From NCBI GenBank assembly GCA_000004985.1, contig GG739344.1: a stretch of DNA of 1,705 nt. One strand, 5' to 3'. The position numbers were made by a program, and so were the translations under genes. Positions 1-1,705 of this stretch are shown piece after piece. Below the pieces are notes generated by a model. The model made no database searches, had not been told where the DNA came from, and saw only the letters and a program-made list of their open reading frames with translations. This DNA is from Naegleria gruberi (taxonomy: Eukaryota). Each line of letters starts with the position of its first letter. The stretch's first letter is position 1.

Positions 1-14
1 TATTGTGTGAAATA

Positions 15-23
15 AAGGTAAGT
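15..23 (+). other. Perfect 5' splice donor consensus AAG|GTAAGT on the plus strand at the window edge
   Basis: Plus-strand aaggtaagt at 15-23. One plus-strand frame, ttg tgt gaa ata aag, is open from the window start up to it. This is compatible with the 3' end of a plus-strand exon lying mostly outside the window, converging on the minus-strand 69-227 segment. Confidence 0.15.
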
Positions 24-68: not shown

Positions 69-227
69 TTAACATGGACGTCCTTTTCCTTCATTGAACA
101 CAAGATCTTTCCAATCCTCGAAATCTGCCAAAGTTAATTGATCTGGATTGAGAATAGTTTCTCTTGCAATGATCTGACATCGTACAATTGGCCAATCCTG
201 TACCAACAAAACTGTAAGGTTGTCTTG
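69..227 (-). CDS. Putative 3'-terminal coding exon with no in-frame ATG. Translation: QDNLTVLLVQDWPIVRCQIIARETILNPDQLTLADFEDWKDLVFNEGKGRPC*. Family not recognised.
   Basis: Fifty-two stop-free codons on the minus strand, bounded by TGA (rc of 229-231) and TAA (rc of 69-71). The translation is protein-like and non-repetitive. G1 enrichment is 17 of 35 G overall and 12 of 23 in the distal part. GC3 is about 29%. Candidate acceptor ttttgttggtacag| ends at 198 on the minus strand, so the exon would start at 197 (DWPIV...). Confidence 0.35.
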   Translation of the reverse strand, partial: QDNLTVLLVQDWPIVRCQIIARETILNPDQLTLADFEDWKDLVFNEGKGRPC

Positions 228-303
228 TCAACACTGGGGGTTCTGGTCTGTAAATGCAGTGATAGTCACTCTGGCGTTGACAAGCAAATTTGTTGACAAT
301 CAT
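91..303 (-). CDS. The ORF-track 70-aa ORF (MIVNKFACQ...RSCVQ). It is probably not the real reading frame.
   Basis: It overlaps the 69-227 segment in another frame. It shows no codon-position-1 G enrichment (4 of 12 G in its unique 5' part). Its 3' part translates as low-plausibility peptide (SRSINFGRFRGLERSCVQ), whereas the alternative frame gives LNPDQLTLADFEDWKDLVFNEGKGRPC. It is kept only because it is the sole ATG-ORF in the window. Confidence 0.12.
   Translation of the reverse strand: MIVNKFACQRQSDYHCIYRPEPPVLTRQPYSFVGTGLANCTMSDHCKRNYSQSRSINFGRFRGLERSCVQ
224..284. repeat. Inverted repeat of 9 bp, cttgtcaac at 224-232 and gttgacaag at 276-284, with a further gttgacaatc at 292-301 that recurs at 1675-1684
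   Basis: The inverted copies are exact reverse complements with a 43-nt spacer. The 10-mer gttgacaatc occurs twice in the window. Confidence 0.2.
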
Positions 304-778: not shown

Positions 779-1026
779 ATGTAAAAGTTGCTGCCTTCCT
801 AGTTCTCAACCATTACTCCACTCTTAGGATATTCTCATTGAAAGATCATTTTGTATCTTTGAAGCTGCTGACATTTCGGTCTGGAACTTGTTCTACTACT
901 AAAAATAAACATTTTATTCTAAGTTTGCTTATTTTGTTGGATTCATTGTATGTTGCTAGTGGTTGGGTAATAGACAGTGTAATAGTTGGTTTTTAGTTGG
1001 CTTTGTTCCTTCTCAACCCCATCCAC

Positions 1027-1095
1027 AACCATTCAGTTATTACATGGTAAACATTCAGTGACTATTCGGTGAACATTTAGTTTCTTTGCGGCTTT
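1027..1095. repeat. Degenerate tandem direct repeat, three units of about 23 bp
   Basis: Units are aaccattcagttattacatggtaa, aacattcagtgactattcggtgaa and acatttagtttctttgcggctttt. Unit 1 versus unit 2 match at about 17 of 23 positions and unit 2 versus unit 3 at about 14 of 23. The core is CATTCAGT / CATTCAGT / CATTTAGT at a 22-23 bp period. On the minus strand this reads CTRAATGKT x3, about 85-150 nt downstream of the putative stop at 1177. Confidence 0.35.
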
Positions 1096-1171
1096 TAGTG
1101 TGTTGGTATTTGACTGAAAGTTTCCCTTAATTTACCATTACAATTTTCATAATTTGAGTAAAACTGATTAA

Positions 1172-1177
1172 TTTATT
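1172..1177 (-). terminator. Polyadenylation signal AATAAA on the minus strand, overlapping the TAA stop
   Basis: Plus-strand tttatt at 1172-1177 is AATAAA on the minus strand, within gTAAATAAAtt directly following the stop codon of the 1177-1323 segment. Confidence 0.35.
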
Positions 1178-1323
1178 TACAATTGTTGTGCTTCTTCTGA
1201 GTCTGATTGACCATTATCTGAATAAAGATCTGCACCATCTGATTCCATATCAAGCAAATTAATTGCGTCTGCTGAAGGTTGTGTTGCTCTTGTCAGGTTT
1301 TTTGATCCAATCTTTAACAAGTG
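1177..1323 (-). CDS. Putative 3'-terminal coding segment in a different frame from 1259-1471, ending in an acidic Ser/Asp/Glu-rich tail. Translation: ...AINLLDMESDGADLYSDNGQSDSEEAQQL*
   Basis: A minus-strand frame is open from 1323 down to a TAA at 1177-1179 (plus-strand tta). From about 1258 down to 1180, 15 of 20 G residues lie at codon position 1 (GAT, GAA, GCA, GGT, GAC codons) and GC3 is about 20%. That is a strong coding periodicity. The upstream part of this frame (1323-1260) lacks the periodicity, and there the previous frame carries it instead. Confidence 0.4.
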   Translation of the reverse strand, partial: HLLKIGSKNLTRATQPSADAINLLDMESDGADLYSDNGQSDSEEAQQL

Positions 1324-1471
1324 TTAAAAAAACAACTTGTTCATCTTCTGCAACATAGCTCTGCAATGAAGAGAATTGACCATTGTTGGCTCTGACATGT
1401 TCTCTTGTTGGTGAAGAGGTAGAAGGTTGAATTTCTGTTGCTTGAATTGAGGATTGAACTCCTTCTATATA
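1259..1471 (-). CDS. Putative coding segment with no in-frame ATG, probably an internal or 5'-proximal exon. Translation: YIEGVQSSIQATEIQPSTSSPTREHVRANNGQFSSLQSYVAEDEQVVFLTLVKDWIKKPDKSNTTFSRRN*. Protein family not recognised.
   Basis: Seventy stop-free codons on the minus strand, bounded by TAA (reverse complement of 1472-1474) upstream and TAA (rc of 1259-1261) downstream. There is no Met codon, so the ORF track does not list it. About 19 of about 29 G residues fall at codon position 1 (chance expectation one third) and GC3 is about 26%. Both are typical of genuine coding sequence in an AT-rich genome. The last 15-20 codons lose this periodicity (see the frame-switch finding). Confidence 0.4.
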   Translation of the reverse strand, partial: YIEGVQSSIQATEIQPSTSSPTREHVRANNGQFSSLQSYVAEDEQVVFLTLVKDWIKKPDKSNTTFSRRN

Positions 1472-1494
1472 TTAGAAACTTCGACATTGGAATT

Positions 1495-1530
1495 CTTCTT
1501 TCTTTTTGGCTTCTCTTTTTTCTTTAATTC
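1495..1530 (-). promoter_or_regulatory. Purine-rich (GA/A-rich) leader on the minus strand, a polypyrimidine CT tract on the plus strand
   Basis: Plus-strand cttctttctttttggcttctcttttttctttaattc reads on the minus strand as gaattaaagaaaaaagagaagccaaaaagaaagaag, immediately 5' of the minus-strand ATG at 1485-1487. An A/G-rich leader of this kind is typical of 5'UTRs and upstream regions in AT-rich eukaryotes. Confidence 0.3.
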
Positions 1531-1569
1531 TATTAGACTCTTTAAAAGAACTCCACAGATTGCTGAATA

Positions 1570-1581
1570 TCTTACTGACAT
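1570..1581 (-). other. ATG-TCA followed by a consensus 5' splice donor GTAAGA on the minus strand (candidate micro first exon or 5'UTR intron donor)
   Basis: Minus strand reads ttaATGTCAGTAAGAtattcag. ATG is rc of 1579-1581 and GTAAGA is rc of 1570-1575, matching the eukaryotic GTRAGT donor consensus 79 nt downstream of the TATA box. A possible acceptor tttctaatatatag| at 1465-1478 would give a 111-nt A-rich intron, but the resulting frame does not match the periodicity-supported frame. Confidence 0.2.
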
Positions 1582-1659
1582 TAACAATAGCTCTAATTAA
1601 TTGTTGGAAAATAATTAATAAATAATTAAGGATAAACTTCACTTACAATACTTTGCACG

Positions 1660-1667
1660 TATTTATA
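1660..1667 (-). promoter_or_regulatory. TATA box TATAAATA on the minus strand
   Basis: Plus-strand tatttata at 1660-1667 is TATAAATA on the minus strand, a canonical eukaryotic TATA octamer. It lies 79 nt upstream of a minus-strand ATG (1579-1581) and about 175 nt upstream of the ATG at 1485-1487, with the right orientation and spacing for a core promoter of the minus-strand coding region. Confidence 0.3.
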
Positions 1668-1705
1668 TGTATCCGTTGACAATCCATTAACATGTTTTCT
1701 GAGCA

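What the first reader, a model, noticed from the sequence alone, without database searches (positions are those of the whole stretch)
1172..1667. Compact gene-like unit on the minus strand
On the minus strand the order 5' to 3' is as follows. TATAAATA sits at 1667-1660. ATG candidates follow at 1581-1579 (then TCA and a GTAAGA donor) and at 1487-1485, the latter preceded by an A/G-rich leader at 1530-1495. About 300 nt of sequence with coding-type base periodicity come next, then a TAA stop at 1179-1177 with AATAAA overlapping it at 1177-1172. All elements are co-oriented and correctly ordered for a small gene of roughly 100 codons encoding a Ser/Thr/Gln/acidic low-complexity protein. No listed ORF covers it, because the periodicity-supported frame contains no Met. 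The true start must therefore be supplied by splicing from upstream or lies in another frame.
Basis: partly seen in the sequence, partly recalled or inferred. Interest (0 to 1): 0.55.

Follow-up and report, generated by a model that had tools for sequence, protein, structure and literature searches.

The report
Frameshifted copy of a Naegleria gene
The "compact gene" is the last two-thirds to four-fifths of a copy of a small, uncharacterised, multi-copy Naegleria gruberi gene that starts outside the window, has one 54-nt intron, and in this copy is broken by four small frameshifts, so it is an ordinary and probably decayed gene copy.

Summary
The gene model is wrong. The minus strand 1703-1177 matches residues 36-193 of the Naegleria gruberi hypothetical protein NAEGRDRAFT_79192 (193 aa), and the same part of its 241-aa paralog NAEGRDRAFT_80659. 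The first 35 (or 83) residues lie beyond window position 1705. TATAAATA (1667-1660) encodes Thr-Tyr-Lys-Tyr inside an exon. Both candidate ATGs are out of frame. The "A/G-rich leader" encodes a conserved basic stretch (ELKKKEKPKRKK). The true intron is 1646-1593 (GTAAGT..TTAG, 54 nt, phase 0), and its position is conserved in the only distant homolog, from Willaertia magna. The TAA at 1179-1177 is the real stop. AATAAA is no more frequent than chance and its role is untested. Compared with both intact paralogs, the window copy has four non-triplet indels (+1, -5, +2, -2), and the first creates a premature TAA at 1583-1581. An independent metagenome contig is 100% identical across the -2 site, so that one is not a sequencing error. 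Most likely this is a non-processed pseudogene or degenerate allele of a family found only in Naegleria and Willaertia. Function is unknown, with no known domain. Interest is low.

The parts
1647..1705 (-). 3' part of the upstream coding exon, cut by the window edge. Codons from 1703 encode (L)RKHVNGLSTDTYKYVQSI, which is P0001 residues 36-55.
   Evidence: tblastn and segment map: 18 of 19 residues identical to P0001. The match starts 2 nt from the window end.
1593..1646 (-). Spliceosomal intron, 54 nt, GTAAGT...TTAG, phase 0.
   Evidence: P0001 joins ...VQSI to SYC... across it. The W. magna homolog has a 42-nt GTAAGT..AATAG phase-0 intron at the homologous position. P0003 is a gene model that reads through it to the same ...VSEVYP* stop seen in the window.
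1581..1592 (-). Start of the terminal exon. It encodes SYC and then a premature TAA (1583-1581), created by one extra A compared with the intact paralogs (TGTTAATGTC instead of the inferred TGTTATGTC). This is frame break 1 (+1).
   Evidence: P0001 and P0004 read SYC-Y-VSKIF, and W. magna reads RYS-Y-CSKLF.
1541..1579 (-). Encodes VSKIFSNLWSSFK (P0001 59-71) in a second frame.
   Evidence: 13 of 13 identical.
1468..1542 (-). Encodes KSLIELKKKEKPKRKKNSNVEVSNI (P0001 73-97) in a third frame, after a 5-nt deficit (frame break 2, -5; the Arg72 codon plus 2 nt are missing). It is followed by an extra TA at about 1467-1466 (frame break 3, +2), which gives an in-frame TAG.
   Evidence: KSLIELKKKEKP aligns with W. 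magna KTLIEEKVIEKP, so this is the ancestral coding frame.
1292..1465 (-). Encodes EGVQSSIQATEIQPSTSSPTREHVRANNGQFSSLQSYVAEDEQVVFLTLVKDWIKKPD (P0001 98-155, two substitutions). It carries a period-3 signal.
1177..1293 (-). Encodes TRATQPSADAINLLDMESDGADLYSDNGQSDSEEAQQL plus the TAA stop (P0001 156-193) after a 2-nt deficit (frame break 4, -2). This is the acidic C-terminal tail.
   Evidence: 38 of 38 identical. The same variant sequence is in independent ENA contig L001, 100% identical over 1406-1108.
1172..1177 (-). AATAAA overlapping the stop codon. It may be a poly(A) signal, but this is unproven.
   Evidence: Present and also present in L001, but the motif is not enriched in the window and there are no transcript data.
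813..1176 (-). 3' flank that is also conserved (about 98-99%) with ENA contig L001, apart from 64-nt and 20-nt stretches present only in the window.

Best explanation
Window 1705-1177 (minus strand) is the 3' two-thirds to four-fifths of one copy of a small multi-copy protein-coding gene family of Naegleria gruberi (gene models NAEGRDRAFT_79192, _80659, _76782). The family has one detectable homolog elsewhere, in the related amoeboflagellate Willaertia magna. The gene starts upstream of the window. It has a 54-nt phase-0 intron at 1646-1593 and ends at TAA 1179-1177. The encoded protein has a conserved, probably helical N-terminal region, then a Lys/Arg-rich stretch, then a non-conserved acidic Ser/Thr/Gln-rich tail that is predicted to be disordered. 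In this copy four small non-triplet indels (+1, -5, +2, -2 nt, all in low-complexity sequence) split the reading frame into five pieces in three frames. A correctly spliced transcript would stop at TAA 1583-1581, inside the conserved region. The copy is therefore most likely a duplicated, non-processed pseudogene or a null allele. Shown: the homology, the frame map, the intron position, the multi-copy status, and that the -2 variant is real. Inferred: pseudogene status, and any function. A nuclear role is only a guess from the basic stretch and acidic tail.
For: The only hit for the spliced model among 5.8 billion proteins is P0001, from N. gruberi, at E = 1e-43. Segment mapping recovers 154 of 158 P0001 residues (36-193) from the window, in three frames. 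At each junction the flanking peptide segments are encoded by contiguous or overlapping window bases, so only indels can explain the differences, not introns. P0001's 90% cluster holds two more N. gruberi models on different scaffolds (362 kb and 7.2 kb) and an ENA fragment. Both long models, P0001 and P0004, share the uninterrupted frame. The W. magna homolog P0002 aligns without gaps across ...YKYVQSI|SYCYVSKIFSNLWSSFKRKSLIELKKKEKP... (39% identity, E = 1e-15). That supports the uninterrupted frame as ancestral across breaks 1 and 2. The intron position and phase are conserved in W. magna. L001 is 100% identical to the window over 1406-1108, including break 4. Published N. gruberi statistics are 1.7 exons per gene and a mean intron of 203 bp, and a 30-bp minimum intron was used for N. 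fowleri read mapping (PMC8296547). N. lovaniensis has a median intron of 80 bp (PMC6125883). A 54-nt intron fits these figures. The 15- and 25-nt GT..AG stretches that could restore the frame do not.
Against: I could not obtain the DNA of the reference loci, so the indels are inferred from protein models, not from a nucleotide alignment. Only break 4 has independent support; breaks 1-3 could still be assembly errors. Very few substitutions accompany the four indels (3 amino-acid differences in 158), which is unusual for an old pseudogene. It fits either a very recent inactivation or sequencing errors. The region from break 3 to the stop still shows a strong period-3 signal and is identical between two independent sequences. 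There are no expression data.
Confidence: 0.72

Rival explanations
1. The window copy is really an intact, functional member of the family. Some or all of the four frame breaks are sequencing or assembly errors, or belong to a low-quality alternative-haplotype contig.
For: All four indels sit in low-complexity contexts (TTAATG, AAAG/A-G run, ATATATAG, GACAAG), where sequencing and assembly errors are common. Amino-acid identity is otherwise about 98%. The ratio of indels to substitutions is high.
Against: Break 4 is reproduced exactly in an independent ENA metagenome contig, and the two sequences are 100% identical over 299 nt. That argues the window is accurate there. Gene model P0003, on a third scaffold, stops in the intron and does not continue. 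That would be expected if that copy is also broken downstream, although this is only an inference.
Confidence: 0.13
2. The copy is expressed and makes a product despite the breaks. Either it makes a truncated protein ending ...VQSISYC*, which keeps part of the conserved N-terminal region, or unusual splicing restores the frame. Such splicing would use a 25-nt GT..AG at 1336-1312, a 15-nt GT..AG at 1479-1465, and an alternative acceptor near 1571.
For: A fully open 144-codon path ending at the true stop can be built with three short GT..AG removals. Only 7 of 200 shuffles allow such a rescue. The tail keeps its period-3 signal.
Against: That path reads exon 1 and the basic stretch in frames that disagree with the frame conserved in W. 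magna. The candidate introns are 15 and 25 nt, begin GTTTCT and GTTGTT rather than the GTAAGT seen in the genuine introns, and are shorter than the 30-bp minimum used for Naegleria. The shuffle control is biased, because the real sequence is made of genuine coding pieces.
Confidence: 0.08
3. One reading: a self-contained compact gene of about 100 codons, with a TATA box at 1667-1660, a start at ATG 1581 or 1487, a stop at 1179-1177 and an AATAAA signal.
For: The motifs are present and in the right order and orientation. The stop codon is correct.
Against: Homologous proteins continue through and upstream of the 'TATA box' to the window edge, and 35-83 residues beyond it. The ATGs are out of the conserved frame. 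TATAAA and AATAAA occur at chance frequency.
Confidence: 0.02
4. The multi-copy sequence is a passenger or ORF of an unrecognised mobile element, not a cellular gene family.
For: There are at least three near-identical gene models on different N. gruberi scaffolds, plus the window and L001 variants. Similarity to L001 extends at least 360 nt past the stop.
Against: The window has no terminal or inverted repeats. No transposase, RT or integrase domain appears in any frame. In W. magna the homolog is single-copy, contains introns, and sits among ordinary cellular genes such as myosin, RCC1 and Kelch. There are no viral relatives.
Confidence: 0.05

Closest known systems
NAEGRDRAFT_79192 (XP_002679016.1 / EFC46272.1, UniProt D2VAA5), hypothetical protein, Naegleria gruberi, 193 aa
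   Same: 154 of 158 residues (36-193) are encoded in the window in the same order. The C-terminus and stop are the same, and the intron site is the same.
   Different: The window needs four frame changes (+1, -5, +2, -2 nt) and has three substitutions (F36L, P101Q, D106E). The first 35 residues are outside the window.
NAEGRDRAFT_80659 (XP_002674185.1, D2VNN8), predicted protein, N. gruberi, 241 aa
   Same: The same family and the same uninterrupted frame as 79192. It is probably the full-length model, with 48 more N-terminal residues.
   Different: It lies on a different scaffold (362 kb). It lacks the Ser after the intron junction and has Ala where 79192 has Asp and the window has Glu.
NAEGRDRAFT_76782 (XP_002668307.1, D2W5T9), predicted protein, N. 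gruberi, 109 aa
   Same: It ends ...TDTYKYVQSIVSEVYP*, which is the intron read-through found in the window's frame at 1703-1629.
   Different: It has Phe where the window has Leu at the first window codon, so it is not the same sequence. The model stops in the intron.
ABK040_003205 (KAL9649525.1), hypothetical protein, Willaertia magna, 150 aa
   Same: 39% identity over P0001 residues 3-89. It has a basic stretch after the conserved region and a phase-0 GTAAGT intron at the homologous position.
   Different: It has no acidic Ser/Thr/Gln tail. It is single-copy, lies in a 16% GC genome, and has a different N-terminus.

Membership tests
NAEGRDRAFT_79192/80659 family (uncharacterised protein found only in Naegleria and Willaertia) | Collinear sequence similarity to family members | tested here: met
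   E = 1e-43 for the spliced model. 154 of 158 residues recovered segment by segment.
NAEGRDRAFT_79192/80659 family (uncharacterised protein found only in Naegleria and Willaertia) | Phase-0 intron between ...(V/K)(Q/K)(S/K)I and (S/R)Y(C/S)Y... | tested here: met
   Window 1646-1593 is GTAAGT..TTAG. W. magna has a 42-nt intron at the same site.
NAEGRDRAFT_79192/80659 family (uncharacterised protein found only in Naegleria and Willaertia) | Uninterrupted reading frame through the conserved region and the tail | tested here: not met
   Four non-triplet indels, and a premature TAA at 1583-1581 after correct splicing. The window is therefore a disrupted copy, not an intact member.
NAEGRDRAFT_79192/80659 family (uncharacterised protein found only in Naegleria and Willaertia) | N-terminal part and start codon | not testable with these tools
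   This part lies beyond window position 1705. The reference genome DNA could not be retrieved.
   TATAAATA lies within codons for T-Y-K-Y of P0001 residues 46-49. Both ATGs are out of the family frame.
Canonical AATAAA polyadenylation signal | Located 10-30 nt upstream of a mapped cleavage/poly(A) site | not testable with these tools
   There are no transcript data. The motif frequency is at chance. W. magna has no exact AATAAA within the 22 nt after its stop that were read.
Processed (retrotransposed) pseudogene | Loss of introns, and a poly(A) tract at the 3' end | tested here: not met
   The 54-nt intron is retained, and there is no A-tract after 1172. If this is a pseudogene, it is the duplicated, non-processed kind.
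Transposable element ORF | Terminal repeats, or a transposase, RT or integrase domain | tested here: not met
   No significant repeats. No Pfam hit in six frames. The test is limited by the 1.7-kb window.

The most novel reading that the evidence does not exclude
Naegleria might splice ultra-short GT..AG introns (25 nt at 1336-1312 and 15 nt at 1479-1465), which together with an alternative acceptor would restore an open frame in this copy. The 'broken' copy would then be an expressed variant with a different basic region. Such introns would be far shorter than any I found reported for Naegleria in the papers read here.
Probability: 0.02. Interest if true: 0.5.

Novelty: new member of a known kind. 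Interest (0 to 1): 0.12.

Why it matters
It matters little beyond annotation. The window holds an unannotated and probably decayed copy of a hypothetical gene family that is already in public databases. Two modest points come out of it. First, the family is real coding sequence and not an ab initio artefact, because its N-terminal region and intron position are conserved between Naegleria and Willaertia. Second, it shows how AT-rich eukaryotic coding sequence can mimic a complete TATA / ATG / AATAAA gene layout by chance.

Tried and rejected
1. Ciliate genetic code (TAA/TAG = Gln). It opens one long frame, but I rejected it once the Naegleria homology explained the frames with the standard code.
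2. My own three-intron rescue model (54 + 15 + 25 nt). It was useful as a search query, but it reads exon 1 and the basic stretch in frames that disagree with the family and with W. magna.
3. Pfam on the models, on P0004 and P0002, and on all six frames of the rest of the window: nothing above threshold.
4. PDB sequence search: nothing.
5. Rfam and tRNA scans: nothing.
6. AlphaFold2 on the four-sequence alignment: mean pLDDT 38, too poor for a fold search, so none was run.
7. Retrieving the reference loci by exact protein look-up failed for P0001, P0003 and P0004.
8. JGI metagenome and IMG/VR scans found no relatives.
9. The 60-330 minus-strand ORFs have no homolog. Ten other window ORFs are not in the protein collection.
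10. tblastx of the window against the W. magna locus found no synteny.
11. Literature searches for the locus tag and for the ENA project returned nothing. The N. gruberi genome paper is not held.

Full report
**Observation.**
The window is 1705 nt with 34% GC.
- TATAAATA at 1667-1660
- ATG at 1581-1579, followed by TCA and GTAAGA
- ATG at 1487-1485
- an A/G-rich stretch at 1530-1495
- TAA at 1179-1177, with AATAAA at 1177-1172

No single ORF spans the region. The period-3 signal is real in 1464-1337 (4 of 300 shuffles reach it) and in 1311-1177 (0 of 300). It is absent from 1705-1480 and from the other 1170 nt. The signal motifs are not enriched: AATAAA occurs 6 times against 3.6 expected, and TATAAA once against 2.2 expected.

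**What it is.**
I built a provisional spliced model and searched it against 5.8 billion proteins. It hit one cluster at E = 1e-43, whose representative is NAEGRDRAFT_79192 (P0001, 193 aa, Naegleria gruberi). A tblastn search and an explicit segment map show that P0001 residues 36-193 tile the window from 1703 to 1180 in order, but in three reading frames:

| Window coordinates | Encodes or feature | Change compared with the intact paralogs |
|---|---|---|
| 1703-1647 | (L)RKHVNGLSTDTYKYVQSI | first exon, cut by the window edge |
| 1646-1593 | 54-nt intron, GTAAGT..TTAG | none |
| 1592-1584 | SYC | followed by one extra A |
| 1579-1541 | VSKIFSNLWSSFK | followed by 5 missing nt |
| 1542-1468 | KSLIELKKKEKPKRKKNSNVEVSNI | followed by an extra TA |
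| 1465-1292 | EGVQSS...KKPD | two substitutions; followed by 2 missing nt |
| 1293-1177 | TRATQ...EEAQQL, then stop | none |

At each junction the neighbouring peptide segments are encoded by contiguous or overlapping window bases. The differences from the reference proteins therefore cannot be introns and must be small indels. P0001's first 35 residues have no counterpart in the window, and the match begins 2 nt from the window edge. The gene therefore starts outside the window.

- TATAAATA is part of the codons ACA TAT AAA TAC (T-Y-K-Y).
- ATG 1581-1579 with its GTAAGA corresponds to the family's Tyr-Val-Ser-Lys codons (TAT GTC AGT AAG). The window carries one extra A just upstream, in TAATG.
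- ATG 1487-1485 is AAT GTC (Asn-Val).
- The "A/G-rich leader" encodes ELKKKEKPKRKK.
- The TAA at 1179-1177 is the genuine stop.
- The role of AATAAA cannot be tested here.

**A multi-copy family.**
P0001's 90%-identity cluster also contains:
- P0004 (NAEGRDRAFT_80659, 241 aa, on a 362-kb scaffold). It has the same uninterrupted frame and 48 more N-terminal residues.
- P0003 (NAEGRDRAFT_76782, 109 aa, on a 7.2-kb scaffold). It reads into the intron and ends ...VQSIVSEVYP*, as the window's frame does.
- P0005, a 47-aa fragment from an ENA metagenome contig (L001). It is exactly the window's ORF at 1320-1177.

L001 is 100% identical to the window over 1406-1108, including the -2 frame break. It stays about 98-99% identical down to 813, apart from 64-nt and 20-nt stretches that only the window has. 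At least that frameshift is therefore a real variant, and the window sequence is accurate in that stretch.

**Is the family real coding sequence?**
An exhaustive HMMER search of 1.84 billion cluster representatives found only one other relative, P0002 from Willaertia magna (150 aa; E = 2.8e-07 for the whole library, 1e-15 pairwise; 39% identity over P0001 3-89). A profile search added nothing more. The alignment with P0002 runs without gaps through ...YKYVQSI|SYCYVSKIFSNLWSSFKRKSLIELKKKEKP.... It therefore supports the uninterrupted frame of P0001 and P0004 across the intron and across the window's first two frame breaks.

In the W. magna genome the gene has a 42-nt GTAAGT..AATAG phase-0 intron exactly between VKKI and RYSYCSKLF. 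That is homologous to the window's 1646-1593 intron. Its neighbours there are ordinary cellular genes (myosin head, RCC1, Kelch).

Published figures (1.7 exons per gene and a mean intron of 203 bp in N. gruberi; a 30-bp minimum intron used for N. fowleri read mapping; a median intron of 80 bp in N. lovaniensis) are compatible with a 54-nt intron. They are not compatible with the 15- and 25-nt GT..AG stretches that could otherwise restore the frame.

**Interpretation.**
The window copy, correctly spliced, would terminate at TAA 1583-1581, inside the conserved region. With four frame-breaking indels compared with two intact paralogs, it is most likely a duplicated, non-processed pseudogene or a null allele (confidence about 0.7). 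The intron is retained, so it is not a retrocopy.

The main rival is assembly error at breaks 1-3 (about 0.13). All four indels lie in low-complexity sequence, and there are few substitutions. I could not obtain the reference DNA or reads to settle this.

**Function.**
No Pfam family reaches its threshold and no solved structure matches. AlphaFold2 gives only a low-confidence model (pLDDT 38), with helices at roughly residues 38-128 of P0004 and a largely disordered tail. I therefore ran no fold search. A conserved helical region, then a Lys/Arg-rich stretch, then an acidic tail suggests a small nuclear protein, but that is a guess.

**Rest of the window.**
There are no Rfam or tRNA hits, no notable repeats, and no Pfam domain in any frame. 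The ORF pieces at 60-330 have no homologs and no period-3 signal.

**Verdict.**
This is an ordinary, probably decayed copy of an annotated hypothetical gene family found only in Naegleria and Willaertia. Interest is low.

Noticed in passing
window 69-303, minus strand: Two ORF pieces in different frames: 303-91 (70 aa) and 209-69 (46 aa, ...QDWPIVRCQIIARETILNPDQLTLADFEDWKDLVFNEGKGRPC*). They look vaguely protein-like, but they have no period-3 signal, no homolog and no Pfam hit, and they are not in the protein collection. They are probably non-coding.
   Followed up: partly
window ~963-1026 and ~913-932: A 64-nt stretch and a 20-nt stretch are present in the window but absent from the otherwise 98-99% identical ENA metagenome contig L001. 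These are length polymorphisms in the 3' flank of the gene copy. Their origin (slippage, small insertion or deletion) was not determined.
   Followed up: partly
L001 (ENA ERZ929261, run ERR1078381, project PRJEB11402), 1-510: A contig labelled as metagenome carries N. gruberi-like sequence that is 100% identical to the window over 299 nt. So a Naegleria very close to the window's source was present in that sample. No paper mentioning the project was found.
   Followed up: partly
L002 (Willaertia magna JBEGDK010000091.1), 10001-10737: The W. magna homolog lies in a locus with only 16% GC. Its introns are short and begin GTAAGT, and its last intron is at the same position and phase as the window's intron.
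   Followed up: yes
window 1609-1629: An 11-nt unit, AAATAATTAAT (written on the + strand), is repeated 1.9 times inside the 54-nt intron. This is AT-rich intron filler of no evident significance.
   Followed up: no
window 11-23, plus strand: AATAAAG is followed directly by GTAAGT on the plus strand, at the very start of the window. It could be an exon end and splice donor of a plus-strand gene lying off the window, or chance (GTAAGT occurs 3 times against 1.0 expected).
   Followed up: no
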